In this document: positions 15,596 to 38,801 of the stretch, piece after piece
How positions within the stretch are numbered: the first letter of the stretch is position 1
Layout: each line of letters begins with the position of its first letter
Source of the DNA: Spirochaetales bacterium
GTDB lineage: Bacteria; Spirochaetota; Spirochaetia; SZUA-6; DRHE01
Assembly (NCBI GenBank): GCA_030615505.1
Contig: JAUWZD010000008.1
Coordinates: 104 to 64,103, forward strand
DNA: 64,000 bases
Reading direction: 5' to 3'
Notes under the pieces: generated by a model
Seen by the model: the letters and a program-made list of their open reading frames with translations, nothing else
What the model was told of the DNA's origin: nothing
The model's database searches: none
Position numbers and translations under genes: made by a program

Positions 15596-15607
15596 AAGCT
15601 TCTCCTG

Positions 15608-15655: not shown

Positions 15656-15687
15656 CAAAAAAGTGACACATCTCAAGGAAGTATCAT

Positions 15688-17186: not shown

Positions 17187-17852
17187 TCGTCTTCAGCGCA
17201 GGATGATTGAAGATAGATACCGCAGTCTATTTAAAGATTCAAAGGATATGATATTTACCAGAACTCCGGATGGATTGATAACTGATATCAACCAGGCGGG
17301 TGTTGAATTATTGGGCTATGCAGATAAATCAGAGATTATTAATAAAAATGTTAGAGATTTATACCAATCTTATCAGGATCTGCTGCATTTCAATCAGCAA
17401 ATTGGGAAGAGAGGGTATGTGAAAGACTATGAACTCTTGTTAAAAAGAAAAGATGGTAAAGAAATATTTGTCCTTGAGACCTCTAATGCCATAAAAGATA
17501 GCAAAGGCAAAATAATTGAATCCCAGGAGGGGTTCGACAGAATTATATCTATTGTTCAGGGCTTAAAAAACTTTTCCCGGATCGATTATACAGGAAAGAT
17601 CGGGGAGGATGACCTCAATAAAGCGATCGAAAATACCTTAATCGTGGCCAGGAGCGAAATCAAATACGCAGCAGGGGTAAAGAAGGATTTATCCGTATTA
17701 CTGCTAATTCAAGGACAGGCAGATGATGGTCCGGGGATACCGGAGAACATGGGGGAGATTTATCCCTGAGGAGTGAGGTCGGGAAAGGTACAACGATTAC
17801 AATAAAACTGCCTATCAGCTACCAGGGGAAGGGAGAAGTAGAAATGAAATGA
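17146..17852 (+). pseudogene. PAS-sensor histidine kinase remnant (no H-box; frameshift/deletion in the HATPase domain)
   Basis: PAS segment, then a degenerate ...DDGPGIPENMGEIYP* (G1 box). The frame switches to ...SEVGKGTTITIKLP (G2 box) ending at 17852. Confidence 0.55.
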
Positions 17853-17902
17853 GTCGCATAAGCTCTTCAGAAAAAACACTAAAGAGCTGCTTCTCATGCT
17901 TC

Positions 17903-23696: not shown

Positions 23697-24208
23697 AACT
23701 CCTCTCTCTCCCTGGGCTTTAAGGATTTAAAAAGATTTAAGATAGCAAAGAGAAAAGGAGCTAAAACGGCATTATAACCTATCTCAATCCATAGCCGGCC
23801 GCCGAATACTATGAAGCCTGCAGCCGGGATTGCAAAGATAGTAACCAGCAGGGATGAAATAATTCCCTTAATCAGTGTACCGACCACCACAAGAATTACA
23901 GGCATCAGGACCGGATCCACGAAAATGCTGCCCACTGTCAGGCCGTAGAGAAAGCCCAGGACGGTCCGATAAAATGCATGAAAGCCCAAAGGTGATAGAC
24001 TTAAGATATCCTGAATCAGACCGGATATAAATCCGGAGGTCTGGCCGGTCATACTCCCCTTGCGAATGGATATAAAGATCAGGATAATCAGGGCAATATC
24101 CGGCTTCACACCACGAAAGGCCGCCCACTTAAGGAGGGTACTCTGAATGATTACAGCCAGACCGAGGAGCAATGTTGATACTATAACCGGTTTTGTTGCT
24201 TTAGCCAT
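23693..24208 (-). CDS. mreD: Rod shape-determining protein MreD
   Basis: 171-aa polytopic membrane protein between mreC and mrdA. Confidence 0.85.
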   Translation of the reverse strand: MAKATKPVIVSTLLLGLAVIIQSTLLKWAAFRGVKPDIALIILIFISIRKGSMTGQTSGFISGLIQDILSLSPLGFHAFYRTVLGFLYGLTVGSIFVDPVLMPVILVVVGTLIKGIISSLLVTIFAIPAAGFIVFGGRLWIEIGYNAVLAPFLFAILNLFKSLKPREREEF

Positions 24209-25054
24209 TTATTCCCCGGTATCAAGAATAAAAAGATATTCAAGACGGGAAAAATCCACAATAGGCTCGATTTCCAGCTCCAGTGAGGCCTCATAGGCTT
24301 TGGCCTGCATCTCCCGCACACGGCCAATATGAATTCCTTTGGGAAAGAGCAGACCCATTCCGGAGGTAATAACCAGATCACCGTACTGGATATCCTCAAC
24401 TGCTGATTTTTTAATATAGCGCATTATCAGGCCGCCCATGTAATGCTGTCTGCCGTTCACTAATCCATCGTAGCGGGAGTTTTGGAGGCGGGCTGCCACG
24501 TAAGAGGATGGATCCGTAATGGGCTTGATGGTTGAGGTCCATAATCCTGCAAACACTATCTTTCCCACCAGTCCCTGAAGGCCTCCCTGGAAAGCCACCA
24601 CGGGCATCCCCCTCTTTACCCCGTGCATTGTGCCTTTATTGACCATTAGTGTGGAAAATTCATTTCCCGGATCCCTGGCAATTACTTCGGCAGGTATCTG
24701 TTTAAATGCTAAGGCTTTTGAAAACTTAAGCTGAACTTTAAGCTGGGTATTTTCCCTGTGCAGTTCAGCCGCATCCCGGGAAATGCGTTCATGCTCTAAA
24801 AGCTTCTCCCTGGCTTCATCCAGCTCCTGCCGCAGCTTCTTAAGCTCATTGATGGAATTCCATGTATTAACAAACCATGTAGAAATACTGTGAATGCTCA
24901 ACTGCAAAGTAGAGAGCAGGGACTGTCCCACCTCCCTGGGCTTTATCACCATATTTCGGTTTGAAAAGAGAATAAGGATTATACAAACTAAGAGCAGTAC
25001 CGTAAAGCTGACACCGGTTTTGCGTTTTTGGATATAACTGTGTATGCCTGTCAT
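24209..25054 (-). CDS. mreC: Rod shape-determining protein MreC
   Basis: N-terminal TM helix, coiled coil, then beta domain. Lies downstream of mreB. Confidence 0.85.
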   Translation of the reverse strand: MTGIHSYIQKRKTGVSFTVLLLVCIILILFSNRNMVIKPREVGQSLLSTLQLSIHSISTWFVNTWNSINELKKLRQELDEAREKLLEHERISRDAAELHRENTQLKVQLKFSKALAFKQIPAEVIARDPGNEFSTLMVNKGTMHGVKRGMPVVAFQGGLQGLVGKIVFAGLWTSTIKPITDPSSYVAARLQNSRYDGLVNGRQHYMGGLIMRYIKKSAVEDIQYGDLVITSGMGLLFPKGIHIGRVREMQAKAYEASLELEIEPIVDFSRLEYLFILDTGE

Positions 25055-25066
25055 AGAGCAATACTA

Positions 25067-26101
25067 TCAGCTTCTAATATTATAATATTTCCTTCCCATA
25101 TCCTTTATACTTTCCAAGAATTTTCCCGCTCCCTGGGCAACACAGAGCAGTGGATTCTCTGCCAGAATAACAGGAACACCAGTTTCTTTAGACACCAGCT
25201 TGGGAAATCCCTTGAGCAGTGAGCCGCCTCCGGTCATTACGATTCCCCGCTCTACAATATCTGCTGCCAGCTCCGGGGGAGTCTGTCCTAAAGACTTTTT
25301 TATCTCGTCAATGACCTGTGTGGTAGGTTCATGCAGAGCCTCACGGATTTCAACCGAATCCATCTCTAAACGCCTGGGCAGCCCGGTAATGGCATCGGTT
25401 CCTTTCAGCTCCATTTTTTCGATCTTCTTCTCGGGAGAAGCGTTACCTATGGTAATCTTTACGTTTTCCGCTGTCTGCTCGCCAATAATGAGATTGTGGA
25501 TGTTCCGCACATGCTTGATCACAGCCTCATCGAACTCAACCCCCCCAATCCTTATGGCGTTGGAAACAACCACCCCTCCCAAGGATATCACGGAAATCTC
25601 GGTGGTTCCGCCGCCCACATCACAGATCATATGTCCGGCCGGCTCTAAGATGGGGATATTCGCCCCTATAGCTGCAGCCATGGTTTCTTCTATCAGATAC
25701 ACCTCCCGGGCTCCGGCCTGTTCAGCACTCTCCCGAACCGCTCTCTTCTCCACTTCCGTGATACAGTTGGGTATCCCGATGACAATCCTGGGCTTAACCA
25801 GCCACTTCCGGTTAATAACCCTGGAAATAAAGTAGCGGATCATCTTCTCTGTGGTCTCGAAATCCGCAATTACTCCGTCGCGCATGGGACGTATGGCGAT
25901 GATATCTCCCGGGGTCTTCCAGAGCATTCTTTTAGCTTCAGTGCCTACGGCTACAACACGTTTGGTTCCTCTCTCCACAGCAACGACGGAGGGCTCTGAA
26001 AGCACGATACCCTTTCCCTTAACATGCACCAGTGTATTGCAGGTACCTAGATCAATACCTATATCCGTAGAAAAGGATTCGAACAGCTTACCAAGCCACA
26101 T
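25067..26101 (-). CDS. mreB: Actin-like rod shape-determining protein MreB
   Basis: [15 protein letters not shown]..., [16 protein letters not shown]: actin/MreB ATPase motifs. Confidence 0.95.
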
Positions 26102-26126: not shown

Positions 26127-27071
26127 TTATTTATAATACCGCAATTTGGCCCCGTAATATTCCGGGTCAATGATCAGAGTTTTTCGCCACTCAGCCCGGG
26201 CTTTAACCGAATCGTTCATACTCTGGTAAATCTCTCCCAGATAAAAGTGAGCATCTGCCGATCGCGGATCTATTTTTAAAATCTGCTGATATTCATTTTC
26301 AGCTTTAAAAAAATCCTTGTTCTCAAAGTACAACTGGCCTAAAAGAAAACGGCTTTTTTTGGTGACTGCCGGATCATCGGTTTTATTGATGGCCCGAATC
26401 AGATACTCTTCAGCCTCAGCCGTTCGCTTTAGCTCAAAGTAATTCTGTCCTACAGTCAAGAGTAGAAGATCCGTTGGATGTATCTCCACTGCCTTTATGA
26501 AGTATTCAAGCCCTTGCTCAATCATTCCAAGCTGATTGTAGGATAATCCCAGGTAATCGTAGATATCCACTCCCTCGTATCCCGCCGACAGAGCCTGTGT
26601 CAGGTATTCTATGGCCAGATCATAATAATACTTTCCTTTATGATAGTAGGCCTTACCCAGAACATAAGCGGTCTCTGATCTCCATGCTTCATCTTCTCTC
26701 AGTCTCGCCCTGCGCAGGCAAACGATCGCTTCTTCTATATTGGGAATTTTATCCTCCAGGGATATTTCTGAAGCAGATTTATAGAAATAAGAAAATCCTT
26801 TATACACTAAGGCAAAATAGTCCACAGGGTTGTTTTGCAGCGCCTCATTGCAGCGGATAATAATTTCATCGTACAGGCGATTGCTCCACAGTTCGTTTAA
26901 GGTAGCCCCCTGAACCTTTGGACGGGAGAAAAATTTCAGCCTTTCACCGCTTAACAAATACCATCCTGCTCCAAAAAGGACAAGGATACCTGCAAATATC
27001 AGGACTAAGAGCCATCCCCTTTTTTTTCTATTTCTTGATTTGTACCGGTATCTATCAACATTGATTAACAT
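26127..27071 (-). CDS. TPR-repeat membrane-anchored protein
   Basis: N-terminal TM helix and TPR repeats. Lies 25 bp upstream of mreB on the same strand. Confidence 0.7.
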   Translation of the reverse strand: MLINVDRYRYKSRNRKKRGWLLVLIFAGILVLFGAGWYLLSGERLKFFSRPKVQGATLNELWSNRLYDEIIIRCNEALQNNPVDYFALVYKGFSYFYKSASEISLEDKIPNIEEAIVCLRRARLREDEAWRSETAYVLGKAYYHKGKYYYDLAIEYLTQALSAGYEGVDIYDYLGLSYNQLGMIEQGLEYFIKAVEIHPTDLLLLTVGQNYFELKRTAEAEEYLIRAINKTDDPAVTKKSRFLLGQLYFENKDFFKAENEYQQILKIDPRSADAHFYLGEIYQSMNDSVKARAEWRKTLIIDPEYYGAKLRYYK

Positions 27072-27118
27072 GTATAAACATTTATACCTCTATAAGCAAA
27101 TCTGTAAAACTAAAAAAA

Positions 27119-27508
27119 GGCAGGTCGATAAGCCGGGTTCTGTCAAAGGCTTATAAGCCTAAGTGGCTGCCATCTATCTGTGCAATGCTGTTGCCAGCCT
27201 GCTTAAGCAGTCTACCCGCAGGGCTGTGGGCGAGCAACCCGCCTGCTGCTTGACTTTGCTCCTGAAGAGGTTTGCCGTGCCCTGTCCGTTGCCGGACAGG
27301 CGGTGAGCTCTTACCCCACCTTTTCACCCTTACCTTACGGCGGTATATTTTCTGTGGCACTTTCTGTCACCATAACCGCTTAACGGATACAGTGCCCGGG
27401 AATTACCCGGCATCATGCTCTACGGAGCCCGGACTTTCCTCTATCGGCCGTTCCCCCCGGGAAGAAATCCTGCCCGGGGGACCCCGACAGCGGCAGCCTG
27501 ACCTGCCT
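27119..27508 (-). ncRNA. rnpB: RNase P RNA (bacterial type A)
   Basis: Minus strand contains AGGAAAGTCCGGGCTCC (P4), GGTAAGGGTGAAAAGGTGGGGTAAGAGCTCACC and ACAGAACCCGGCTTATCG, as in E. coli M1 RNA. P1 pairs GGCAGGTC with GACCTGCC. A T-run follows the 3' end. Confidence 0.9.
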
Positions 27509-27528
27509 ATTACATTGTCGGAAGTTTA

Positions 27529-28341: not shown

Positions 28342-30069
28342 TTAATGTTCAAGATAATCTTTAAGTCTTCGGCTGCGTTGGGGATGTCGCAGCCTGCGCA
28401 GGGCTTTAGCCTCAATCTGCCGGATGCGCTCTCTGGTTACATTGAAATAGAGCCCTACCTCCTCCAGGGTCAGGGAATAGCCATCTTCCAGACCGAACCT
28501 CATCTTAAGGACTTCCTGCTCTCTTGGCGGCAGGGTGTAAAGCACATCCTCAAGCTGCTCCTGCAGCAGCTTGAATGCTGTCTGGCTGGCCGGATTTTCT
28601 ACGTCCTTGTCCTCTATAAAATCTCCCAGCAGTGAATCGTCCTCCTCACCGATGGGTGTTTCTAAAGAAATCGGTTCCCTGGCCACACTCTTAACCGATT
28701 TCACCCGCTGAGTCGTCCAGCCAAGCCTTTCAGCTATCTCTGCATCTGTGGGTTCCCTGCCCAGAACCTGCATGAGCTGTCTCGATTCCCGCACCACCTT
28801 GTTGATCTGTTCTATCATGTGCACCGGGACACGGATTGTCCGCGCCTGGTCCGAAATGGATCGGGTAATTGCCTGTCTGATCCACCAGGTCGCATAGGTT
28901 GAGAATTTATAGCCCTTACGGTACTCAAACTTTTCCACCGCTTTAATCAGGCCTATGTTCCCCTCCTGAACAAGATCAAAAAAGTGCAGTCCACGGTTTG
29001 TGTATTTCTTGGCAATACTGACCACCAGCCTGAGATTCGCTTTGATCAGCCTGTCTTTAGCGCTCTTCATCATGATGCGGCCGTGTTCAATTTCTTTAGC
29101 CATTTTAAGAATTTTATGAATTGTGTTGTGAAACTCATTCTCAAGTTTCATCAACTTCTTATCGTTAATCTGTATCTGCCGGATAAGTTCCTTGATTCGG
29201 TCGGCAGGCATTCCAAGATCCTGCTCGATCCTGTCCCTGTCGGATTTTAAAGCCAGGCTCCGGCCAAGACTGCGGAGCTCTTTATGATTGCTAATATTAA
29301 GGCGCTTTTTTATCTTCTGTCTCTCTCTTAAGATTTTCTTTATGCGGCTTGCCACCATGGCAAACTTCTCAGAGAACATATTGATCTCATCCTGGTGAAG
29401 ATCAATTTTCGAAAGCCGCTTGATAAGCTCAGTTTCCTTTGCGCTGAGAACCTCATTCTTTAAGATACTTTCCCCCCGTCTTTCCACCTCCTTCTTTAAT
29501 TCCATAAACTGCTTCATCTGGAAAAAATGAAAACTCAAGGGTTCCCGGTATAGTTGATTAATTCTTCTCCTCTCTGCCAGAACCTCAGAAATCTCTTTCT
29601 TGGAGAGGTTCAGCTCCTTGGGATCCAGTTTTAAGCTGGTACGTTGAGCAAGCTTGTAAAGCTCAGGAATCAGGAAACCTGCATGCTTGATGACTTTTTG
29701 GATGATACTCTCTCCATCCTCCATTTTTTTGGAAAGAATCACTTCCTGTTCCCCAGTCAGCAGATTTTCTTTGCCTATTTCCCTTAGATACAGACGAATA
29801 GGATCATCGACAGCCGTTTCCTTTTCATCATAAACCATTTTCCTTTTGCCCGGAGCAGGCTTTTCATCAACTTCAATGTCTAAATTGATTTCTTCATCCT
29901 CAAGCTTGATGTTATTCTTCTCTAAAATGGCCATAACTTCCTCGATCCGGTCCGAGTTCACGATATCATCGGGCAGGAAGTCATTGACCTCATCATAGGT
30001 TATTGTTTTTTTCTTTTTTGAGTACTCTATTAATTTAATAATGGCAGGATCATTCTTCAGATCTGTCAT
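28342..30069 (-). CDS. rpoD: RNA polymerase sigma-70 factor RpoD
   Basis: Regions 1.2-4.2. [14 protein letters not shown], region 4 helix-turn-helix. Confidence 0.95.
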
Positions 30070-31834
30070 TCAGCATCACCTTCAATTTTTGTAGTTCTTC
30101 ATCTAAGAATATTTTTTCCGCCAGAAGCTCTTTGAGTTCTTCAGGCCGGCTCCCGGCTCTTTTAGTGATTAAAGATGCAACACAGCTTCTTTTAGTCTCT
30201 AAACTGCGCTGCTTAATTCGACTTATCCCATCCCGGATCAACCTATCCTGATTAATATTGAACTCCTCAGACGATATTTTTCTTAAAAGTAATTCCTTCA
30301 AGCCGGGATCTTCAATGTGCTCAAGCAGGGATTCCAGGCTGTTTTCCTCATTTCGAAAGCACTCCTCCAGCGCAATGTATAATTCTTTTGCCCTACTATC
30401 CTCGATATCATCTTCAATAATAGTATTCCTCAACCATGAAAAATAGTCACGATTCACAGAAATGGCAAGCATTAGAAAAAGGTCGGAGGAAATTCCAATT
30501 TCCTCCTCCTGTCCTGCTTTATACTTCTTAGTTCTGTTGAACCCCCTTAAAAAATCACTTCGTACTGACTCAAAGTCTACCCCAAGTCTCTCTGCCAGAA
30601 TACGGAGGTAGCCGTCTCTTTTTACCTGAGAATCTATACTTGCCAGATAGGAATCGAGAAGTTTGAATATTCCTTCTTTTCCATCCGGAGTTTGTGAATC
30701 ATATTTCAAAAATGCTCTATTCAATAGAAACTGAAAACTATTTATAGGACATTTTAACTTTTTTTTCAATGTCTCCGCACCATCTTTTTCAATAATCGCA
30801 GCAGGATCCTCGCCTTCAGGGAGATCTACAACATTAACGGAAATCCCCTGCTTCTCACAGAGCCCAGCCGCCTTGAATGTAGCCTGTATCCCCGCCTCAT
30901 CTCCATCAAAGATCAGCACCCCCCTCTGGGCATACCGCTTTAAGAGCCTTACCTGGCCGGCCGTTAAAGAGGTACCTAATGGGGCAACACAGTTATCGAT
31001 CTGATCTGAAGCCTGGCATAAAGCCAGTACATCCATATACCCCTCCACAATGATAAACTCATCCTTGTTTCGAATATTCTTGAATACATCCGGCGGGCCG
31101 AAGAAATTCTCACCCTTCCTGAAGAATGGAGTTTCAGGGGAATTAATATACTTCGGAACTTCTCTGTCCTCACTAAGAGCCCGACCGCCAAATCCTATCA
31201 CCTCTTCACGGTTGTTACGTATTGGAAAAATAATCCTATCCCTGAATAGCGAATTTAAAACCCCGCTCCTGCTGGAGAACAGGCCTGAATCTCTAAGGAA
31301 CTCTTCTGAATAATTCTTCTCCTTTAAGAACATAAACAGCCACTCTCTCTCCGGCCGGGCATATCCAACCTGAAATATCTTTAAGCTATCCTGGCTTACA
31401 TACCGGGACATAAGATACGCCCGTGCCTGAGCGGCGATCTTATGATTCAGCAGGATATGGTGAAAGCTCCCCGCAACACGCCTGTAAAGCTCTAAATAGG
31501 CCTCTCTCTGACTGGCGCCGTATTGAGCAGCCTGTTGATCCAGAAAGGAAAGGTCTACACCGGCCTTCTCAGCCAGAAACCGTACAGCCTCTGTAAAGGA
31601 GAGCTTTTCCGATTCCATTATGAACGTATAGATACTGCCGCCCTTGTGACAGCCGAAACAGTAATAAACCCCCTTATCCGGGGTCACGGTGAAAGATGGT
31701 GTCTTCTCCTCATGGAATGGGCACAATCCCCAGTAACGTCCCCCCTTTTTCTGAAGATGGACATACTCAGAGACTACTTCAATCATATCGAGTCGATCGG
31801 CTACTTCGGAAATGACATGATCCGGTATTCTCAT
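30050..31834 (-). CDS. dnaG: DNA primase DnaG
   Basis: Zinc-binding domain ([11 protein letters not shown]...CFGC), TOPRIM (EGYMDV), C-terminal helicase-interaction region. Confidence 0.95.
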
Positions 31835-31848: not shown

Positions 31849-32892
31849 TCAACCCCCAACTCCGACCCGTTTCAGATAGTAGTATTTAGCCCAGTTATGT
31901 TCCTGGAGGTTCGCAGAGAAGTAATGCTCGCCCGTGGCAGGGTTTTTCAAAAGGAAATACCAGTAATCTGTTTCCGGGGGATGAAAAGCAGCGTTCAAAG
32001 CCACTAATCCCGGATTGGATATAGGCCCGGGCGGCAGACCGGCCCATTTATACGTGTTGTAAGGCGAACCATTTTCTTTATCTTCCAGGGTTAAATATTC
32101 AGGATGTGGTTTCTCTTCTATCTCAGTTACAATGTACTGAAGAGTGGCGCAGGATTCAAGTCCGATATTGCGCTTCAAACGGTTATAAAATACAGAAGCA
32201 ATAAGTGGCGCTTCCTCAGGCCTGCGGTACTCCCTTTCTACAATAGAGGCCATAATGACCTTTTGATGAAGGATCTGTTTATCCAATTGGGTATATTCCG
32301 GGGCTATTGTCTTAAGGCGCTCAAAGAAGTTAATAACCATCTGTTCCAGCACTGCATAGGCCGGATAACCCTCAGGGAAATAATAGGTATCCGGAAACAG
32401 ATAACCCTCCATGGTATCAGCAGGGATTCCGTATTCACTTAAGAGGGCTTCCGATCCGGCCGCAGTCAATACTTCGCTTTTGGTGGCTATACCCTTTTTC
32501 CCCAAATGCTCCGCCACTTTACTCAGTGTCCAACCCTCTGGAAATGTAATTCTTACCTGCTCCTGATAACCGGCTATGAGTAAGTTGTGAATGTCTACGG
32601 TTGTACTGCCGGGCATTATGCGGAAATAGCCGCTCTTGAAGTAGGTCTCGGAGTGATTAAAGCGGCTCAAAATTTTGAGGAACAGGGATGAACGGATTAA
32701 TTGATCATGCTCAAGCCTACCGGCAATCGAATTAAGCGATTCTCCCTTTATGATCTTAAATACCCTTCCCACATCCGGCACTGACGGTGAAGGCGTATTC
32801 AAGTAATATAGAAATGCAGCCGTACCCAGACCGAAGAAAAAGATAAGGAAAAATATGGTAATGATAATATTCGAAATTGATACTCGCTTCAT
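31849..32892 (-). CDS. mltG: Endolytic murein transglycosylase MltG (YceG family)
   Basis: N-terminal TM helix and YceG-like domain. 4-bp overlap with the upstream giant gene. Confidence 0.85.
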   Translation of the reverse strand: MKRVSISNIIITIFFLIFFFGLGTAAFLYYLNTPSPSVPDVGRVFKIIKGESLNSIAGRLEHDQLIRSSLFLKILSRFNHSETYFKSGYFRIMPGSTTVDIHNLLIAGYQEQVRITFPEGWTLSKVAEHLGKKGIATKSEVLTAAGSEALLSEYGIPADTMEGYLFPDTYYFPEGYPAYAVLEQMVINFFERLKTIAPEYTQLDKQILHQKVIMASIVEREYRRPEEAPLIASVFYNRLKRNIGLESCATLQYIVTEIEEKPHPEYLTLEDKENGSPYNTYKWAGLPPGPISNPGLVALNAAFHPPETDYWYFLLKNPATGEHYFSANLQEHNWAKYYYLKRVGVGG

Positions 32893-35800
32893 TTCTTAAT
32901 CAATATAAACTCAACCCTGCGGTTCTTCCATCTGTTTTCTAGATCCCTGAAGGGCACAATCGGATGCTTTCCTCCCAGACCTGCTGTAGATATCCTGGAT
33001 GCCTGCAATCCCAGTTCCACTAAAGCCGTCTTTACCGCTTCAGCCCTGGCGTTGGATAGAGGCCCCAGTTCCTTTATCTCTTCCTCAGCCGCCTTTACCG
33101 GGTCCGCCCAGGATAGATTATTGGCATGACCCTCGATCCGTATCCTGTATTTGCTGTATTTTGTAAAAATCTCGGCCAGGCGCTTTATCGTTCTGTTATT
33201 TCTGTCGATCTTCTCCCCATCCTCAACAGCGGAGAGATCCGCTGAATTTGGCGGAAATGTTATACTGGATATTCTCACTTTAAGCTTATCCCCCTCCCGG
33301 ATAACCAGAACATCCACCGGAATAATTCTTTCTAAATCGGTCGAATTTCCTAAAGTATCGTTTATGCGGAAAAATACCCTGTAATCCTGAGCCGCCTGAA
33401 CCAGCTCGCCGCTGTCCGAAAGACCATCCCATATAATGCGGTCCGTGGGATTTCCCCTGCCGCTGAAAGTTGTGAACAAATGGCCCACCGGATCGTTTAT
33501 TTCCATTGCCCAGCCTGCGATCGGACTCAGATCCTCCACCCCAATACCAATATTGAGCTCATCATCAACACCGTCGTTGTCCGGAGAAAACGGCCTGGGA
33601 GTCAGTGTAAAATCCACCATGGGCGGCGAGATGTCCAACCGGAAGGGAGCAGTCTTTTCCTCGGGCCTGTTTCCCTTGTTATACTCAACTGTGAACAGGG
33701 CCTGATAGAATCCTTCCGGAGCCGCTCCATAGTCTCCTCTGCCGTCCCAGCTTATATTGGAAGGAATCTTGCCTACTCCGCTGAATCTCTTCTTCACACC
33801 CTGCTTGGAATGGATGAGATCCAGATGCCAGGATTTGATTCCATCTGTCATTTCCACATAGGTATTAAACTCAATTTTATCCAGGAAACCGTCATAATTC
33901 GGTGAAAACCCGTCTGCAGAGACCGTAATAAATAAGGGAGTGAGGCGGGTATCGATCTCCAATCCCCTGATCTCTTTAGACACACTGTTGCCTGCAGGGT
34001 CGATGCATCTGACCCTGTAGCTGTACAGGCCGTCGGCAATTTTATTGCCGTTTTCATCCTTTCCATCCCATTTGAAAGTGGAGGCCTGTCCCTTCCAGTA
34101 AAAGCTGCGCACCTCCTCTTCTCGGCTGTCGCGAATCTCCGCCTCCCATAGATTTTCCCGGCTTGAGCTCTGCCGAATCGTTACTTCATCACGCAGTCCG
34201 TCTCCATCCGGTGAAAAGAGGGTAAAATCCACAGAAATCTCAATTGTGGGCTCTTTAGTATCCATAATGAAGGAAGGCGTGCGCACCTCATGATGATCCC
34301 CTTTAAGATAATCCAGCTCCAGCTCCGCTACATATTCCCCATCGGGAAGGCGGCGGCCATTATCATCAAGACCGTCCCAGGCCAAAGTATCAGGAGCCCG
34401 GTTCTGCCCCCGGACATTCTTTACAACCTGCTTCGATTGATCGAGGATGCGCAGGTGGAAGGATTCTACCCCGGAAGTGACTTTTAAAGTGGAAATGAGC
34501 TTTATGCGATCTTTTACACCATCCGCATTCGGGGAAAAATAGCCTGAATCCGTTGAAATAAAAACTTCAGTCTCCTCAGTATTCACCTCAAATTGGATCT
34601 TCTTGGATTCCCCGAAATTTCCCGCCTTATCCGTGGCTCTCAGAAAATAGGAATATATTCCATCCGGCATGAGCCGGCCGTCATCAGAACGGCCTTCCCA
34701 TACCATTTTCGAGTCCACCCTGCCCCGCCAGGAAAAACTTCTTACAGTCTGTCCGAAAGCATTTGTCAGAATTCCCTCCCATTCGGGTTCCACTGAACTT
34801 TCCTGATAGATGGTTACCGTATCTTTTATACCGTCTCCATTTGGAGAAAAAACGGCCAAATCCGAGCTTAAAACGGCAGATGGCGGTGTGAGATCGATAG
34901 TAAAGGAGGGAGAAAGAGCATTAGGATTATTACCGTTAACATAGAGCACTTCCAGCTCTGCATCGTATGTTCCTTCAGGCAGTTTCTTTCCCTCATTATC
35001 CGTTCCATCGAAGTCCAGGGCCTTAAAAATAGACTCAGTTCCCTTGAAGATTCTTCTGATTGTCCCCTGTTCATCACTTATGCTTAAGCTCCACTTTTCA
35101 ATTCCCGAAGTTACCGGCACATCAAGTGTGAATATTAGGGTGTCTTTTACCTGATCTCCGTTAGGCGAGAAAAAAGACTCACTGATATTGATATTGATGG
35201 GCGTTGCCTGGGTACTGATTATTATATTATCAATCTGAGCTGATCCTGTATTTCCGGCCCGGTCTGTAGAAGTGATCCGATAATTGTAAACCCCATCGGG
35301 AGATAGGATCTCTCCTGAGTTCCTGCCATCCCAATCGAAGTTCTGAGGATCACTGTTTTTCCACTTAAGGCTCACTATCTCTTCCCCGTCCACGTTCTGA
35401 ACCGTGCCATGCCAGAGGATTTCTTCGGAACCCTTCTGCTCAACAGGCAGTACGTCCTTGTTCCCATCGTCATTGGGAGAGAAAATCAGATAGGGGGTGT
35501 TCAGCTCAACCGAAGGCGGAGTATTATCCACTATCACGCTTCCGGTGTCGCTTTTGCCCAGGTTGCCGTTATCATCCCAGGCTTCCACCTGAAATGTATA
35601 ATTCCCATCCGGTGCTACACTCCCTTTATCCGTACGACCATCCCATCGAAGCTGTTCCGGAATAGTTATTCCTTTTTTAACATAGAGAAGCCGATCTACA
35701 ATATTTTTTACCGTAACATTCTCCGGACGCTCATCCTTATTTACAATCTCCCGTACCTTCACACCCTGGCTGTCATATACAATGAAACGATAGCCCTTGA

Positions 35801-36866
35801 TAAAGCGCTCATCCGTTATCTGTACAGATTTATTCAGATCATCCTGAACCCCATCCAGATTGGGAGAGATATTCTCTGTAGCAGTGTCAATATTAATAAC
35901 CGGCGGATCTTTATCGACCACCCCTATATGTACATTCACTCCGGCACCAACTGCCCAGATATCGTTCTGCAGAGGTGCAGCAGAAACGCTGGTTTTAACC
36001 TCGCTTCGATCCTGGCGGATCGAGGTGGCGAACCTCAGAGCCAGACCAAAAGATACCGGAAGGTTCCTCGATGTTTCTTTCAGGAACTCATGAGCATCGA
36101 AGAAAGCCCCGGCCTGGACAAATAGAAAATCCTTAAAGGTCAGTTCGGTTCCTAAGGAGGCCTGGAGATTCTGGAAACCCGGAAAAATCAGGTCTGCGGT
36201 GAACGCCAGGTCAAAAGCCTTTGAATCTATCAGTCCGAAATAGGCTCCGATGGATGGAGTAAAGGGCGCCGGGTAGGCGGTCCTTCCTTCAACCGGGGCA
36301 AAACCCTTGCCCAGACCCTTAATGGCTACGCCCCAGCGGAAGTCTTTAAAGAATCCCAGTTCTCCGGGCAGATGAACAAACCCAAGATCCAGTCCCAAAC
36401 CCCAATCACTACCGAACATGGCACCTAAACCCGCGCCTACTAATAGCCTGGGAAATAGGTCTTTGGCAAAGGATACATTGAGTCCTCCGAAAGTACCCAG
36501 TTCCACACTGTCAAAGGGCGTAGAGACGAATCGGGCGCTGCTGCTGAATACACCGGCCCGGGTCGGCAGTGTTAAGCCTGTATTAATAACGTGGCCGAAT
36601 CCACTGTCCTCGTCCGAACCTACTAATCCGATGTAGCTTAAGTCCAGGGTTACCCGCTGTCTGGCCCCTGATGCGGCCGGATTCAGCACATCCCCGGCAG
36701 GGGACAGCGTGGATACAGTTTTTGAACCCCCGGCCAGAAAAGAGGGAGAGTACAGATCATAAAGACTGCTGATTCCCGGCGGAGGGTCATACTCCGAAAA
36801 AACGGGAAATATAATAAACAGAACAAGAAAGCTGATCAATCCTGAAATAACATACTTCTTTTTCAT
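32889..36866 (-). CDS. 1325-aa outer-membrane-type protein: Gly-rich beta-rich N-terminal domain, eight tandem FlgD-Ig-like domains, C-terminal OmpA peptidoglycan-binding domain
   Basis: Signal peptide. Motif (F/I)SPNxDGxxD repeated eight times, each followed by W(D/E)G..d.G...pDG.Y. C-terminus RIEGHANN...NRRVEFILI is OmpA-like. Confidence 0.85.
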   Translation of the reverse strand: MKKKYVISGLISFLVLFIIFPVFSEYDPPPGISSLYDLYSPSFLAGGSKTVSTLSPAGDVLNPAASGARQRVTLDLSYIGLVGSDEDSGFGHVINTGLTLPTRAGVFSSSARFVSTPFDSVELGTFGGLNVSFAKDLFPRLLVGAGLGAMFGSDWGLGLDLGFVHLPGELGFFKDFRWGVAIKGLGKGFAPVEGRTAYPAPFTPSIGAYFGLIDSKAFDLAFTADLIFPGFQNLQASLGTELTFKDFLFVQAGAFFDAHEFLKETSRNLPVSFGLALRFATSIRQDRSEVKTSVSAAPLQNDIWAVGAGVNVHIGVVDKDPPVINIDTATENISPNLDGVQDDLNKSVQITDERFIKGYRFIVYDSQGVKVREIVNKDERPENVTVKNIVDRLLYVKKGITIPEQLRWDGRTDKGSVAPDGNYTFQVEAWDDNGNLGKSDTGSVIVDNTPPSVELNTPYLIFSPNDDGNKDVLPVEQKGSEEILWHGTVQNVDGEEIVSLKWKNSDPQNFDWDGRNSGEILSPDGVYNYRITSTDRAGNTGSAQIDNIIISTQATPININISESFFSPNGDQVKDTLIFTLDVPVTSGIEKWSLSISDEQGTIRRIFKGTESIFKALDFDGTDNEGKKLPEGTYDAELEVLYVNGNNPNALSPSFTIDLTPPSAVLSSDLAVFSPNGDGIKDTVTIYQESSVEPEWEGILTNAFGQTVRSFSWRGRVDSKMVWEGRSDDGRLMPDGIYSYFLRATDKAGNFGESKKIQFEVNTEETEVFISTDSGYFSPNADGVKDRIKLISTLKVTSGVESFHLRILDQSKQVVKNVRGQNRAPDTLAWDGLDDNGRRLPDGEYVAELELDYLKGDHHEVRTPSFIMDTKEPTIEISVDFTLFSPDGDGLRDEVTIRQSSSRENLWEAEIRDSREEEVRSFYWKGQASTFKWDGKDENGNKIADGLYSYRVRCIDPAGNSVSKEIRGLEIDTRLTPLFITVSADGFSPNYDGFLDKIEFNTYVEMTDGIKSWHLDLIHSKQGVKKRFSGVGKIPSNISWDGRGDYGAAPEGFYQALFTVEYNKGNRPEEKTAPFRLDISPPMVDFTLTPRPFSPDNDGVDDELNIGIGVEDLSPIAGWAMEINDPVGHLFTTFSGRGNPTDRIIWDGLSDSGELVQAAQDYRVFFRINDTLGNSTDLERIIPVDVLVIREGDKLKVRISSITFPPNSADLSAVEDGEKIDRNNRTIKRLAEIFTKYSKYRIRIEGHANNLSWADPVKAAEEEIKELGPLSNARAEAVKTALVELGLQASRISTAGLGGKHPIVPFRDLENRWKNRRVEFILIKK
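33476..35876 (-). repeat. Eight tandem FlgD-Ig-like coding repeats (about 290 bp each, diverged at the DNA level)
   Basis: Protein-level periodicity of the FSPNGDG...WDG..DNG..LPDGxY motif. Confidence 0.7.
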
Positions 36867-36927: not shown

Positions 36928-37137
36928 TTACCGGCCAAATTCAATTCTTTTATTGTAAAGTTCATTCAAACCCTCAAATTTTTCGATTGATAACTCTTCA
37001 TACAGCCTCTTCTCAACACGAGAAAGCAATCGAAGCCGTATCGGGTCCAGTTTATCTTCATCTACTTTTAAAAGAAGATAAAGAGAAATCGTCTCCACCG
37101 GGTTGAGTGTGAAGGGATTCTTGGAATTAGAGTTCAA
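36928..37137 (-). CDS. Small hypothetical protein (69 aa)
   Basis: ORF overlaps the stop of the MBL gene by 11 bp. No homology recognised. Confidence 0.35.
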   Translation of the reverse strand: MNSNSKNPFTLNPVETISLYLLLKVDEDKLDPIRLRLLSRVEKRLYEELSIEKFEGLNELYNKRIEFGR

Positions 37138-38071
37138 GCTCCAGTCCTTCTACAGCTAAAATCACCTTAAACTTCTTGTTCTCAATGCGAGCCCTATACC
37201 ATTCAGCGGAATTCAAAATCCCGTAAATTTTCCGATCATCGTAGAGCGGCTCATGATGGAATAAGGCCAGAGTCTTAATCCCCCATTCTGCCGCGAAATC
37301 TATGGCCATGCTGTATGAAGTATGCCCCCAGTCATACTTTTCGATAGCTTCACCCAGGGTATACTGAGAATCAAGAATCAACAGATCAGTACCTGCAAAA
37401 AACCGCCGGTTTCCCTCGGTTCTCTTGAAGTCAGCAGTAGTGATCTCAGAATCTGTGGCAAAGATCATACTTTTGTTATCTTCACTGATCTTGTAAGCCA
37501 CACACTTCCCGGGATGCTTCATCTCTTTCCATGCTATATGTGCCTTTCCAAGTTTCACCCCGCTGTTTTTAAGCCGCATAAAGCGCAGATCCGCATTAAA
37601 GACCTCCATTCCCACCGGGAAATAGGGGTGCTTCATCTGATTCCTTAGGACTTCTTCCAGATTTTCCCGGGGACTGTAGAAGAAGAGTGTATTTCCCTTT
37701 TTGTACACAATAGGAATAAAAAAGGGCAGACCCTGAAGATGATCCCAGTGAAAATGGGTAAAAAAGATATGAAACTCCCTGATTCCATCATTCTTCCTGG
37801 CCAGGGAAGCTCCCAGCTCCCGGATTCCTGACCCCGTATCAATAATAATCAGCCTATTCTCTGAGGTTCGTATCTCAATACAGGTTGTGTTTCCACCTAC
37901 TGTACCGAACAGATAGGGGGGAAGATCGGCTAAAAAAGCCTCTCTGGTTTCAGGGCTTTTAAGGTCACTTGCTTTTATGCGCATCACAATGGCCGCTATG
38001 CGGCTCTTGAGCTGTTCTGCAGTAATAGGAGTGGGAATTGAACCCCGGGTTCCCCAAAATTTTACTTTCAT
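37127..38071 (-). CDS. MBL-fold metallo-hydrolase
   Basis: HFHWDH metal-binding motif. About 310 aa. Confidence 0.8.
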   Translation of the reverse strand: MKVKFWGTRGSIPTPITAEQLKSRIAAIVMRIKASDLKSPETREAFLADLPPYLFGTVGGNTTCIEIRTSENRLIIIDTGSGIRELGASLARKNDGIREFHIFFTHFHWDHLQGLPFFIPIVYKKGNTLFFYSPRENLEEVLRNQMKHPYFPVGMEVFNADLRFMRLKNSGVKLGKAHIAWKEMKHPGKCVAYKISEDNKSMIFATDSEITTADFKRTEGNRRFFAGTDLLILDSQYTLGEAIEKYDWGHTSYSMAIDFAAEWGIKTLALFHHEPLYDDRKIYGILNSAEWYRARIENKKFKVILAVEGLELEL

Positions 38072-38523
38072 AGCAGCATTATATCCTCAGGCTCAGGGTA
38101 TTTGGCTCTATCAAGCATTTTAAGCCAATGCTCAATCCTTCTTTTGGAGTGCGGGCTCCCCTTGCCCATTCCCGGGCAGGAACTTTTAAGCTTGTTCCAG
38201 CCTTCCTGAGAGGCCAGATTTGAGCTCCAGAAGGGAAAACTGCGGCATTGGACCGGCCTCTGTTTGTATACGGTGCATCCTCCATTCTCCCAGAAGATAC
38301 AGTCACAGTTTCCCTTTTCTATAAGACTGATTTGCTTAATACCATTGATATTGACCTCACGGCAGTAGATTTCCATGAATTCCTCTCCGGACAGTCCCGT
38401 GGCTTTTAGGAGATTCTTCACATCCATTAAACTTAGCAATACAAATCCCGGAGTAAATCGGCAGCAGGCGGAACAGCGGGTACATTCAAAACGCAGTCCC
38501 TCTTTGTAGAAACAATCGGCCAT
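38068..38523 (-). CDS. YkgJ-family Cys-cluster protein (UPF0153)
   Basis: CTRCSACC motif near the N-terminus plus further Cys pairs. Overlaps the MBL gene start. Confidence 0.75.
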   Translation of the reverse strand: MADCFYKEGLRFECTRCSACCRFTPGFVLLSLMDVKNLLKATGLSGEEFMEIYCREVNINGIKQISLIEKGNCDCIFWENGGCTVYKQRPVQCRSFPFWSSNLASQEGWNKLKSSCPGMGKGSPHSKRRIEHWLKMLDRAKYPEPEDIMLL

Positions 38524-38577: not shown

Positions 38578-38579
38578 TT

Positions 38580-38661
38580 TGGGGAGAGAAGGATTCGAAC
38601 CTTCGAAGGCTGAGCCAACAGATTTACAGTCTGCCCCCTTTGGCCGCTCGGGAACCTCCCC
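38580..38661 (-). tRNA. tRNA-Tyr (anticodon GTA), long variable arm, no encoded CCA
   Basis: Near-identical to the E. coli tRNA-Tyr core (…CCCGAGCGGCCAAAGGGGGCAGACTGTAAATCTG…GAAGGTTCGAATCCTTC…). Acceptor GGGGAGG/TCTCCCC. Confidence 0.9.
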
Positions 38662-38728
38662 ACATTGTGCTCGTGTCGTTCAGTAAGCAAAACCCTAACA
38701 ATAAGGTCCTATTTTGTCAAGGCACCCG

Positions 38729-38801
38729 AGCCACCTGCCCGATTCGAACGGGCGACCCCGAGATTACAAGTCACGTGCTCTACCAGCTGAGCTAAGGTGG
38801 C
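38729..38801 (-). tRNA. tRNA-Thr (anticodon TGT inferred), no encoded CCA
   Basis: Cloverleaf GCCACCT / D-stem GCTC / anticodon loop CTTGTAA / T-arm GCCCGTTCGAATCGGGC / AGGTGGC. One U-U mismatch in the anticodon stem. Confidence 0.75.

What the first reader, a model, noticed from the sequence alone, without database searches (positions are those of the whole stretch)
32889..36866. Giant OmpA-family protein with eight tandem FlgD-Ig-like domains and a Gly-rich beta-rich N-terminal domain
After a signal peptide, the first approximately 300 residues are Gly/Ala/Phe-rich with alternating hydrophobics (GFGHVINTGLTL..., GLGAMFGSDWGLGLDLGFVHL...). This is suggestive of an outer-membrane beta-barrel or porin-like module. 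Eight copies follow of the approximately 95-aa FSPNGDGxxD...WDG.DdnG..lPDGxY unit, the FlgD-Ig-like fold. The protein ends in a classical OmpA peptidoglycan-binding domain. The combination of OM-barrel-like N-terminus, a roughly 30-nm Ig stalk and a PG anchor would span the periplasm, an appealing candidate for an envelope-spanning tether near the periplasmic flagella. The gene heads an operon with mltG, dnaG and rpoD.
Basis: partly seen in the sequence, partly recalled or inferred. Interest (0 to 1): 0.6.

Follow-up and report, generated by a model that had tools for sequence, protein, structure and literature searches.

The report
Spirochaete outer-membrane-to-cell-wall tether protein
This spirochaete gene encodes one long protein with a predicted outer-membrane barrel, a rod of eight Ig-like domains and a cell-wall-binding-type end domain, so it probably ties the outer membrane to the cell wall across the wide, flagella-containing periplasm; the family is common but I found no study of it.

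Summary
Window 32889-36866 (-) is a real 1325-aa gene with this layout:
- signal peptide
- 298-aa Gly/Leu/Phe/Ala-rich domain
- eight Ig-like domains (FlgD_ig E 8e-45)
- OmpA_C domain (E 9e-11)

AlphaFold2 models the N-terminal domain as a 14-stranded barrel (pLDDT 82). Its best structural matches are T9SS PorV and FadL, and it carries an invariant Asn-Pro(-Ala) 'hatch' motif. No sequence family covers it.

An even strand count puts the stalk and OmpA domain in the periplasm. In Treponemataceae the protein is split exactly at the barrel/Ig1 linker into two adjacent genes, each with its own signal peptide.

- The stalk is Ig1-(A-B)n-Ig8. Among 203 homologues the domain count is almost always even (4, 8, 10, 12, 14, 16; one has 48).
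- The OmpA pocket is non-canonical: the Asp is lost and the Arg is invariant, as in T. pallidum Tp0624.
- The conserved cluster starts upstream: CxxC-MBL-gene-mltG-dnaG-rpoD.

Best reading: an outer-membrane-to-peptidoglycan tether with a modular stalk (confidence 0.55). It is a new variant of the OmpA-type tether. Function is inferred, not shown.

The parts
36795..36866 (-). Signal peptide, aa 1-24 (MKKKYVISGLISFLVLFIIFPVFS/EY). It looks like a signal peptidase I type and has no Cys, so no lipobox.
   Evidence: Read from the sequence. The AF2 model has an N-terminal helix at 2-23. Homologues have equivalent leaders.
36654..36794 (-). N-terminal 'hatch' segment, aa 25-71, with the motif L61-N62-P63-A64 seven residues before strand 1.
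   Evidence: N62 and P63 are invariant in 26 diverse barrels and in 134 orthologues. The hhalign run places NPA on the NPA of E. coli FadL, although the match as a whole is not significant. The role of NPA in FadL hatches is described in PMC8407342.
35925..36653 (-). 14-stranded outer-membrane beta-barrel, aa 72-314. The putative extracellular loops are very short (3-15 aa) and the periplasmic turns are 2-6 aa.
   Evidence: AF2 gave pLDDT 81.7 and pTM 0.77 with 14 strands. Foldseek top hits are PorV 6h3i_F (E 4.5e-8, TM 0.62), then FadL, TbuX and TodX. Strands alternate a hydrophobic face (mean hydropathy +2.0) with a polar one (-0.24). A weak PorV_fam hit scored E 0.0011.
35889..35924 (-). 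Barrel-to-stalk linker, aa 315-326 (GVVDKDPPVINI), with G315, D318 and P322 invariant. This is the point where the gene is split in Treponemataceae.
   Evidence: Conservation and the split form in L056.
35502..35888 (-). Ig1, aa 327-455. A special first Ig-like domain with a conserved 25-aa insert, and the most conserved stalk domain (57% identity).
33609..35501 (-). Ig2-Ig7, aa 456-1086: three A-B pairs of Ig-like domains. Type A is Ig2, 4 and 6 (103-104 aa); type B is Ig3, 5 and 7 (106-107 aa).
   Evidence: Repeat spacing and typing. AF2 of Ig2-Ig5 gave pLDDT 93.0, pTM 0.67 and an all-beta model. The best PDB matches are rod-like adhesin extenders: 6xi3 (E 1.8e-17), 4p99 and 2yn5. No indels occur in this region across 134 orthologues.
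33294..33608 (-). Ig8, aa 1087-1191. A special last Ig-like domain next to the OmpA domain (55% identity among orthologues).
32889..33293 (-). OmpA_C-like domain, aa 1192-1325 plus the stop codon. Its motif is EGHA[N/V]-(x)17-LxPLSxxRA and it ends in NRRVEF.
   Evidence: Pfam OmpA 42.4 bits. PDB sequence hits to OmpA-like domains include Tp0624 (5jir) and AbOmpA (3td3). Column profile of the motif.
31849..32892 (-). mltG (YceG-family lytic transglycosylase). Its start codon overlaps the stop of the giant gene by 4 nt.
   Evidence: Pfam YceG E 1.4e-77. Coordinates. The same gene follows in 28 of 54 related loci.
28342..31834 (-). dnaG (30050-31834) and rpoD (28342-30069), tightly packed downstream.
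   Evidence: Pfam and synteny.
37127..38523 (-). Conserved upstream genes on the same strand: an MBL-fold protein (37127-38071) and a CxxCxxCC protein (38068-38523). tRNA-Tyr and tRNA-Thr (38579-38801) lie before them.
   Evidence: Pfam, synteny and tRNA scan.

Best explanation
The protein is a single-chain link between the outer membrane (OM) and the peptidoglycan (PG) layer, built for the wide spirochaete periplasm.

Proposed mechanism:
1. After Sec export, the N-terminal 14-stranded FadL/PorV-fold barrel inserts into the OM, with an NPA-containing hatch segment and minimal surface loops (predicted).
2. Because the strand count is even, the chain leaves the barrel on the periplasmic side (inferred from topology).
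3. It continues as a rod of eight Ig-like beta-sandwich domains arranged Ig1-(A-B)3-Ig8. By analogy with 104-aa adhesin extender domains this would be about 35 nm if fully extended (inferred).
4. It ends in an OmpA_C-like domain that attaches non-covalently to the PG layer on the cell cylinder. The pocket is modified: the Asp is lost and the Arg is kept. This may suit the non-DAP (ornithine-type) PG reported for most spirochaetes (inferred, not shown).

The stalk length is changed in evolution by adding or removing A-B pairs.

The gene sits in a conserved housekeeping cluster with mltG, dnaG and rpoD. This suggests constitutive expression and a link to cell-wall growth (inferred).
For: - Barrel: the AF2 model has 14 long strands, pLDDT 81.7 and pTM 0.77. 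The best PDB matches are PorV and FadL-family 14-stranded barrels at E 4.5e-8 to 1e-6. Strands show dyad amphipathicity, and long and short loops alternate in a way that places both termini on one side. N62-P63 is invariant.
- Stalk: FlgD_ig scores 151 bits. The AF2 model of four domains has pLDDT 93. The best PDB matches are rod-like tandem extenders, for which a tetra-tandemer of 104-aa repeats measures about 190 A (PMC4083281).
- OmpA: Pfam and PDB hits, and R1274 is invariant in 133 of 133 sequences.
- Periplasmic location of the stalk: in Treponemataceae a barrel-only gene (352 aa, own signal peptide) is followed one base later by a 1033-aa Ig8-OmpA gene with its own signal peptide. This is seen on independent contigs, and the barrel-only form occurs in 48 protein clusters, including Treponema brennaborense.
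- Structural rather than adhesive constraint: the stalk domains are as conserved as the barrel (45-57% against 44% identity), with no indels in 134 orthologues. 121 proteins keep the positional order 12345678.
- Context: CxxC-MBL-gene-mltG-dnaG-rpoD is conserved in 28 of 54 loci, and mreBCD lies nearby.
- Setting: in spirochaetes the PG belongs to the cell cylinder and the flagella rotate beneath the OM (PMC7225975). In T. pallidum the PG is distal to the OM (PMC5104382).
Against: - There is no experimental evidence for localisation, PG binding or phenotype.
- The canonical PG-binding residues Asp2 and Asn10 of TD(x)7NxxLSxxRA are absent. The similarly altered Tp0624 domain did not bind DAP.
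- A homologue with 48 Ig domains (5734 aa), and others with 4 to 16, cannot all be straight perpendicular struts across one periplasm.
- Fixed tethers crossing the space in which flagella rotate might obstruct them (my inference).
- The barrel keeps a FadL-type NPA motif, which could mean a transport role.
- The barrel has no significant sequence match to any known family, so the fold assignment rests on a prediction.
- I could not inspect model coordinates, so the hatch position, the barrel-Ig1 contact and the rod length are all unverified.
Confidence: 0.55

Rival explanations
1. It is primarily a FadL/PorV-type OM channel or shuttle for hydrophobic or other substrates. The Ig-OmpA extension only positions it, or passes cargo toward the cell cylinder, as proposed for the periplasmic extensions of some T. 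pallidum FadL orthologues.
For: - The barrel fold matches FadL, TbuX, TodX and PorV.
- The NP(A) motif is invariant at the position it occupies in FadL hatches.
- Three of five T. pallidum FadL orthologues have periplasmic C-terminal extensions (PMC8407342).
Against: - There is no sequence-level membership: no Pfam Toluene_X hit in 26 members, and hhalign probability is 2.7%.
- The predicted extracellular loops are only 3-15 aa. From my own knowledge, FadL captures substrate with long loops.
- Most of the conserved mass is stalk and OmpA domain.
- The neighbours are housekeeping and cell-wall genes, not lipid or aromatic catabolism genes.
Confidence: 0.15
2. It is an anchoring platform related to the type IX secretion PorP-PorE-type B CTD module. 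A PorV/PorP-like barrel holds a CHU_C-like domain (Ig1), an OmpA_C domain fixes the assembly to PG, and the assembly serves to dock other envelope proteins rather than simply to tether the membrane.
For: - The top structural hits are PorV in T9SS translocon complexes.
- There is a weak PorV/PorQ family hit, E 0.0011.
- The repeats match CHU_C (E 4e-35) and TIGR04131 (66.6 bits against a cutoff of 35).
- A PorE(OmpA_C)-PorP(barrel)-type B CTD complex is documented (PMC9143113).
- The split form in Treponemataceae pairs a barrel gene with a gene that starts with the CHU_C-like Ig1.
Against: - The PorV_fam score is far below its cutoff (18.6 against 90).
- The CHU_C-like domains are internal and repeated, not a C-terminal secretion signal.
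- T9SS is described as specific to Bacteroidetes (abstracts listed).
- No partner proteins were identified.
- In T9SS the type B CTD protein is on the cell surface. Here the chain topology and the OmpA end argue for the periplasm.
Confidence: 0.12
3. It is a surface adhesin. The barrel anchors or exports the Ig repeats to the cell surface, as in an inverse autotransporter or as claimed for Leptospira Lsa66, where they bind host or environmental ligands.
For: - The C-terminal roughly 500 residues match the Lsa66 (LIC10258) model (E 4e-94). Lsa66 was reported to be surface-detected and to bind laminin, fibronectin and plasminogen (PMC3130794).
- The stalk resembles adhesin extender regions.
Against: - The score is below the Lsa66 cutoff (316 against 700).
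- A PG-binding-type domain at the distal tip makes no sense outside the cell.
- A 14-stranded barrel with a hatch segment and an even strand count places the C-terminus in the periplasm.
- The split form exports the Ig-OmpA part with an ordinary Sec signal peptide and no barrel.
- The family is core-like in free-living spirochaete genomes, with strict positional conservation and no indels, unlike fast-evolving adhesins.
Confidence: 0.06
4. It is a flagellar protein related to the hook-cap protein FlgD.
For: - FlgD_ig domain hits, and partial hits to NCBIfam FlgD models.
Against: - All FlgD equivalog scores are far below their cutoffs (for example 105.8 against 230), and they cover only the Ig part.
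- The protein has a Sec signal peptide, an OM barrel and an OmpA domain.
- There are no flagellar genes in the conserved neighbourhood.
Confidence: 0.02

Closest known systems
E. coli OmpA / Pseudomonas OprF type OM-PG tethers (N-terminal barrel plus C-terminal OmpA_C domain)
   Same: The logic and domain order are the same: an N-terminal OM beta-barrel, then a periplasmic OmpA_C-like domain (Pfam OmpA above threshold). PMC5104382 lists an N-terminal barrel as one of three ways OmpA-domain proteins connect to the OM.
   Different: - The barrel is a 14-stranded FadL/PorV-fold barrel with a hatch motif. OmpA's barrel has 8 strands (my own knowledge).
- About 865 residues of Ig-like rod lie between barrel and OmpA domain, in place of a short linker.
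- The PG-binding motif is non-canonical.
FadL family (E. coli FadL, TodX, TbuX) and the T. pallidum FadL orthologues TP0548/TP0859/TP0865 with periplasmic C-terminal extensions
   Same: - The predicted fold is a 14-stranded barrel.
- An NPA motif lies just before strand 1.
- The layout is bipartite, with a periplasmic C-terminal extension.
   Different: - No significant sequence similarity.
- Very short predicted surface loops.
- The extension is an Ig rod plus an OmpA domain, not an alpha-helical TPR-like domain.
T9SS PorV/PorQ and the PorP-PorE-type B CTD complex of Bacteroidota
   Same: - PorV is the best structural match, and there is a weak PorV_fam hit.
- The same three kinds of part occur together: a FadL-fold barrel, a CHU_C/type B CTD-like beta-sandwich and an OmpA_C PG anchor.
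   Different: - Here the parts are fused, or split into only two genes.
- The CHU_C-like domains are internal and repeated.
- The stalk is predicted to be periplasmic.
- The T9SS is described as specific to Bacteroidetes. I did not check this genome for T9SS genes.
Leptospira interrogans Lsa66 (LIC10258)
   Same: A signal peptide, FlgD-Ig-like repeats and a C-terminal OmpA-like domain. The NCBIfam Lsa66 model aligns to residues 824-1322.
   Different: - The score is below the equivalog cutoff (316 against 700).
- The Lsa66 model is 581 positions long and has no room for the 300-aa barrel.
- Lsa66 has been described as a surface adhesin.
Treponema pallidum Tp0624 (PDB 5JIR)
   Same: A divergent spirochaetal OmpA-like domain in which the canonical DAP-binding Asp is lost while the Arg is kept. 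It has been proposed to link PG with OM proteins.
   Different: Tp0624 has unrelated N-terminal domains, no barrel and no Ig rod. Its motif is TAD(x)6[E/Q]xxLSxxRA, against HA[N/V](x)17LxPLSxxRA with a 10-aa insert here.
Extender regions of giant RTX adhesins (MpIBP RII 4P99, MhLap 6XI3, SiiE 2YN5)
   Same: Tandem beta-sandwich domains of about 104 aa forming an extended rod. These are the best structural matches to Ig2-Ig5.
   Different: - Those are T1SS-secreted, surface-exposed, near-identical repeats rigidified by Ca2+.
- Here the repeats are ancient and divergent (23-45% identity), alternate between two types, and are predicted to be periplasmic.
- Ca2+ binding was not tested.
Braun's lipoprotein Lpp as a periplasm-width ruler
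   Same: The concept is the same: an OM-PG connector whose length could set or limit the OM-PG distance.
   Different: Lpp is a small covalently attached helical lipoprotein. This is a non-covalent (presumed) barrel-Ig-OmpA chain, and a ruler role is only hypothesised.

Membership tests
OmpA family (Pfam PF00691 OmpA_C-like domain) | Domain HMM match above the gathering score | tested here: met
   42.4 bits against a cutoff of 27.2, residues 1204-1316. PDB OmpA-like domains match at E 1e-8 to 1e-6.
OmpA family (canonical PG/DAP-binding subtype) | Motif TD(x)7NxxLSxxRA with the critical Asp2, Asn10 and Arg17 (PMC5104382) | tested here: not met
   In this family the motif is HA[N 87/V 34 of 134](x)17LxPLSxxRA. 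The Asp and Asn are absent, the Arg is invariant, and there is a 10-aa insert.
FlgD_ig (Pfam PF13860) Ig-like domain | Domain HMM match above the gathering score | tested here: met
   151.1 bits against a cutoff of 27, six stretches. The AF2 model is all-beta with pLDDT 93.
Flagellar hook-cap protein FlgD (NCBIfam equivalogs) | Full-length equivalog score above the cutoff | tested here: not met
   The best is 105.8 bits against a cutoff of 230, and only the Ig part matches.
FadL / OMPP1 / TodX family | Sequence-profile similarity to the family | tested here: not met
   No Pfam hit in 26 family members. hhalign against E. coli FadL gave probability 2.7% and E 0.017. A profile search of PDB sequences found nothing.
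FadL / OMPP1 / TodX family | 14-stranded barrel fold | tested here: met
   The AF2 model has 14 strands. Foldseek matched FadL, TbuX and TodX at E 2.5e-7 to 2e-5 with TM about 0.55. This rests on a prediction only.
FadL / OMPP1 / TodX family | N-terminal hatch with a conserved NPA motif | tested here: met
   N62-P63 is invariant and A64 nearly so, seven residues before strand 1. Whether the segment plugs the lumen could not be checked.
FadL / OMPP1 / TodX family | Kink in strand 3 with a lateral opening, and a substrate-binding site | not testable with these tools
PorV/PorQ family (NCBIfam NF033709) | Subfamily HMM score above the cutoff | tested here: not met
   18.6 bits against a cutoff of 90, E 0.0011. 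PorV is nevertheless the top structural match.
T9SS type B sorting domain (TIGR04131 / CHU_C) | Domain HMM match | tested here: met
   TIGR04131 scored 66.6 bits against a cutoff of 35, and CHU_C scored E 4.3e-35.
T9SS type B sorting domain (TIGR04131 / CHU_C) | A single domain at the extreme C-terminus acting as a secretion signal | tested here: not met
   The matches are internal and repeated, and the C-terminus is an OmpA domain.
Lsa66 (NCBIfam NF053608 equivalog) | Equivalog score above the cutoff and the same architecture | tested here: not met
   316 bits against a cutoff of 700. Only model positions 95-579 align, to residues 824-1322, and Lsa66 has no barrel.
Inverse autotransporters (intimin/invasin) | A dedicated barrel family with the Ig passenger exported to the surface | tested here: not met
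   No Pfam hit of that kind. The barrel is predicted to have 14 strands with a FadL/PorV fold. Surface exposure itself was not tested.

The most novel reading that the evidence does not exclude
The Ig1-(A-B)n-Ig8 stalk is a genetically encoded ruler or spring that sets or limits the distance between the outer membrane and the cell wall in spirochaetes. That would make it their counterpart of Lpp. The number of A-B pairs (1 to 23) would be tuned to the thickness of the flagella-filled periplasm.

In addition, the triad of barrel, CHU_C-like domain and OmpA_C domain would share ancestry with the T9SS PorP / type B CTD / PorE anchoring module of Bacteroidota.
Probability: 0.2. Interest if true: 0.8.

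Novelty: new variant of a known kind. Interest (0 to 1): 0.58.

Why it matters
How spirochaetes hold a fluid outer membrane onto a cell cylinder while flagella rotate in between is, as far as I know, still poorly understood. The T. pallidum papers read here invoke a need to tether the OM to the PG sacculus and discuss which proteins might position the PG.

This family is widespread in Spirochaetales genomes. It sits in a conserved housekeeping cluster. Its architecture makes it an obvious physical OM-PG connector.

The quantised stalk (4, 8, 10, 12, 14, 16 or 48 domains) gives a direct experimental handle. Adding or removing A-B pairs and then measuring envelope spacing, stability and motility would test the idea.

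The work also defines a barrel family with no match in Pfam, NCBIfam or PDB sequences, and it hints at a link between FadL/PorV-fold barrels, CHU_C-like domains and OmpA_C anchors outside Bacteroidota.

Tried and rejected
- **Locus search with the wide alignment.** The search for related loci with the diverse barrel alignment A2 failed because no stretch was conserved enough. The closer alignment A1 was used instead.
- **Sequence-level tests of the barrel** gave nothing significant:
  - Pfam on the domain and on 26 family members found only chance-level hits.
  - A profile search of PDB sequences found nothing.
  - hhalign against E. coli FadL was not significant.
  - NCBIfam gave only an 18.6-bit PorV_fam hit.
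- **Promoter and terminator scan** of 27-39 kb found no more sites than shuffled sequence, so it says nothing about where the operon starts.
- **DNA-level tandem repeats** in the gene: none.
- **Neighbours of the 4-Ig and 12-Ig versions** are mostly unrelated housekeeping genes and give no functional clue.
- **Literature.** Two full-text searches found no paper on this architecture.
- **Rejected readings:** FlgD hook cap (scores below cutoffs, wrong architecture), Lsa66 equivalog (below cutoff, no barrel in Lsa66), T9SS substrate (domains internal) and general porin (14-strand FadL/PorV fold with a hatch motif).

Full report
**1. The observation**

The ORF at window 32889-36866 on the minus strand encodes 1325 aa.

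It is a genuine, conserved gene. An identical protein (P0016) is on record, and 550 homologues passed E <= 0.001. Most of the best 120 are full length. All homologues that carry a taxon name come from Spirochaetales, Spirochaetaceae or Spirochaetia genomes assembled from metagenomes, plus Salinispira pacifica. All 54 related genomic loci are spirochaetal.

Pfam finds FlgD_ig (151 bits, E 8e-45, six stretches), the overlapping CHU_C and Big_13 families, and OmpA (42.4 bits against a cutoff of 27.2, residues 1204-1316).

Eight repeats begin at residues 333, 462, 566, 673, 777, 884, 987 and 1093. The period is 103-107 aa, not about 95. Repeat 1 is 129 aa because of a conserved insert. Repeats are 23-45% identical, and nothing repeats at the DNA level, so the array is ancient.

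The N-terminal 25-322 is Gly/Leu/Phe/Ala/Ser-rich.

**2. The N-terminal domain is a predicted 14-stranded barrel**

No Pfam family matches this domain, in this protein or in 25 diverse relatives. A profile of it finds nothing among PDB sequences.

AlphaFold2 with a 16-sequence alignment gives pLDDT 81.7 and pTM 0.77. The model has 14 strands of 10-16 residues, preceded by a partly helical segment at 35-68.

Foldseek against the PDB puts PorV of the type IX secretion translocon first (6h3i_F, E 4.5e-8, TM 0.62; also 8gl6_F). E. coli FadL, TbuX, TodX and other FadL-family 14-stranded barrels follow.

In nearly every strand one face is hydrophobic (mean hydropathy +2.0) and the other is not (-0.24). 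Connections alternate between longer ones (3-15 aa) and very short ones (2-6 aa). This is the pattern of extracellular loops and periplasmic turns, and it puts both chain ends on the periplasmic side.

Asn62-Pro63 is invariant and Ala64 nearly so. The motif lies seven residues before strand 1. An (insignificant) hhalign alignment places it on the NPA of E. coli FadL. A conserved NPA in the luminal hatch is a hallmark of FadL and of the T. pallidum FadL orthologues (PMC8407342).

The only sequence-level hint is a weak NCBIfam PorV/PorQ hit (E 0.0011, 18.6 bits against a cutoff of 90).

I therefore call this a FadL/PorV-fold barrel that belongs to no family in Pfam, NCBIfam or PDB sequences. It is not a demonstrated member of either known family.

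**3. The stalk**

The eight domains are not equivalent:
- Ig1 has the insert and is the most conserved stalk domain.
- Ig2, 4 and 6 (type A, 103-104 aa) alternate with Ig3, 5 and 7 (type B, 106-107 aa).
- Ig8 is again special.

121 proteins read 12345678. The four-domain proteins read 1278, the ten-domain proteins 1232345678, and the twelve-domain proteins 123456345678 or similar. A/B parity is kept in nearly all the patterns listed.

| Ig domains per protein | 4 | 7 | 8 | 9 | 10 | 11 | 12 | 14 | 16 |
|---|---|---|---|---|---|---|---|---|---|
| Proteins (of 203) | 8 | 1 | 149 | 1 | 9 | 2 | 30 | 1 | 2 |

One further 5734-aa homologue has the barrel, 48 domains with alternating 103/113 spacing, and an OmpA domain.

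The architecture is therefore Ig1-(A-B)n-Ig8, with length changed in two-domain steps.

In 134 eight-domain orthologues there are essentially no indels anywhere in the stalk. Its domains are 45-57% identical to the query, against 44% for the barrel.

AlphaFold2 of Ig2-Ig5 gives pLDDT 93.0, pTM 0.67 and an all-beta model. Its best PDB matches are the rod-like extender regions of giant adhesins: 6xi3 (E 1.8e-17), 4p99 and 2yn5.

For 4p99, four 104-aa repeats span about 190 A (PMC4083281). By analogy, eight domains would reach roughly 35-38 nm if fully extended. This is an inference. I could not measure the model, and Ca2+ binding is untested.

**4. The OmpA domain**

The fold-level assignment is solid.

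The canonical peptidoglycan-binding motif is TD(x)7NxxLSxxRA, with Asp2, Asn10 and Arg17 critical (PMC5104382). Here, and across 134 orthologues, the motif is EGHA[N/V], then about 17 residues including a 10-aa insert, then LxPLSxxRA. The Asp is Asn (87 sequences) or Val (34), the Asn is Leu, and the Arg is invariant.

T. pallidum Tp0624 shows a comparable change (Asp to Ala, Arg kept). It did not bind DAP. Its authors suggested adaptation to the ornithine-type peptidoglycan of most spirochaetes.

So 'classical' is wrong, and peptidoglycan binding is plausible but unproven.

**5. Topology and the natural split**

An even number of strands returns the chain to the periplasm, so the stalk and OmpA domain should be periplasmic.

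Independent support comes from Treponemataceae. A 352-aa barrel-only protein (P0282) has its own signal peptide and ends just after the conserved D-x-x-x-P linker. One base later a 1033-aa gene begins. Its product starts with its own signal peptide (MKKYLLLLLCLFCFELFA/QSS) and continues directly with Ig1, seven more Ig domains and the OmpA domain.

The arrangement is seen on independent assemblies. Barrel-only proteins of 340-380 aa form 48 clusters, including Treponema brennaborense.

A stalk-OmpA protein exported by Sec with no barrel is most simply periplasmic. The fused and split forms argue that the two parts work together.

**6. Genomic context**

- The stop codon of the gene overlaps the mltG start by 4 nt.
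- dnaG starts 14 nt after mltG ends.
- rpoD overlaps dnaG by 20 nt.
- A zinc-ribbon gene and the RNase P RNA follow.
- Upstream on the same strand are an MBL-fold gene (260-nt gap) and a CxxCxxCC gene. Two tRNA genes precede those.

The order CxxC-MBL-gene-mltG-dnaG-rpoD-zinc ribbon recurs in 28 of 54 related loci, always with a gene of eight-domain size. The four- and twelve-domain versions, and a few eight-domain ones, lie elsewhere.

The gene is thus embedded in a conserved housekeeping and cell-wall cluster, and mreBCD lies 7 kb away. 'Heads an operon' is not established. The promoter scan was uninformative.

**7. Interpretation**

The best-supported reading is an OM-to-peptidoglycan tether of the OmpA type, adapted to spirochaetes. 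In these bacteria the peptidoglycan belongs to the cell cylinder and flagella rotate beneath the outer membrane (PMC7225975). In T. pallidum the peptidoglycan is distal to the OM.

- Shown by computation: the domain architecture, the predicted barrel fold, the modular stalk, the split form and the synteny.
- Inferred: membrane insertion, periplasmic location, peptidoglycan binding, rod length and function.

Three things keep confidence at about 0.55: the altered OmpA pocket, the 4-to-48 range of stalk lengths, and the possible obstruction of flagella by fixed struts. A flexible or spring-like tether, or different roles for the length classes, would reconcile these points.

Rivals:
- A FadL/PorV-type transport or shuttle function with an anchoring tail (0.15).
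- A PorP-PorE-type B CTD-like docking platform (0.12; complex documented in PMC9143113).
- A surface adhesin in the sense claimed for Lsa66 (0.06; PMC3130794).
- A FlgD-like flagellar role (0.02).

**8. Novelty**

Databases label these proteins only as 'OmpA family protein', 'FlgD immunoglobulin-like domain containing protein' or 'gliding motility-associated C-terminal domain-containing protein'. Two full-text searches found no study of the architecture.

It is a new variant of a known kind, the barrel-plus-OmpA_C tether. Three features are new: a barrel family with no match in Pfam, NCBIfam or PDB sequences, a two-domain modular stalk, and a fused/split dimorphism.

Noticed in passing
L056 6001-7059 and 7061-10162 (also L057, L058): In Treponemataceae the family is split into two adjacent genes: a barrel-only protein (352 aa) and an Ig8-OmpA protein (1033 aa). 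Each has its own signal peptide, and they are separated by one base. They sit next to an rnf operon, not next to mltG-dnaG-rpoD.
   Followed up: yes
Proteins P0296 (5734 aa), P0150 and P0297: One homologue on a roughly 3-Mb contig has the barrel, 48 Ig domains with alternating 103/113-aa spacing, and an OmpA domain. In a related assembly the same gene is called as two pieces (4065 + 1669 aa).
   Followed up: partly
L044, L047, L049 and L050, downstream of the 12-Ig gene (e.g. L047 17220-18500): In Alkalispirochaeta/Spirochaeta loci the twelve-domain version is followed by a 426-aa protein with one POTRA domain and an Omp85 barrel (Pfam E 3e-7 and 9e-7). A possible dedicated assembly partner; not examined further.
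   Followed up: partly
window 27113-27509 (-): Bacterial RNase P RNA class A (273 bits). It fills the apparent gap downstream of the zinc-ribbon gene that follows rpoD.
   Followed up: no
window 38579-38662 (-) and 38728-38801 (-): tRNA-Tyr(GTA) and tRNA-Thr(TGT) lie between the methionine aminopeptidase gene and the CxxC-MBL-giant gene cluster. They probably mark the start of the transcription unit.
   Followed up: no
window 23693-26101 (-): An mreB-mreC-mreD cluster (Pfam E 2e-142, 1e-39 and 6e-12), followed upstream by a TPR protein (26127-27071). This places the locus in a cell-shape and cell-wall neighbourhood.
   Followed up: partly
window 1-18000 versus 18001-42000: G+C content steps from about 37-42% to about 45-52% near 18 kb and falls again after about 42 kb (2-kb windows). 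The cause was not examined.
   Followed up: no
window 35502-35888 (aa 327-455, Ig1): The first Ig domain carries a 25-aa insert (consensus NKEDRPEN...R...VK.GI.VP..LRWDG) that is conserved across the family, including in the split form. Its role is unknown; it may form the contact with the barrel or with a partner.
   Followed up: partly
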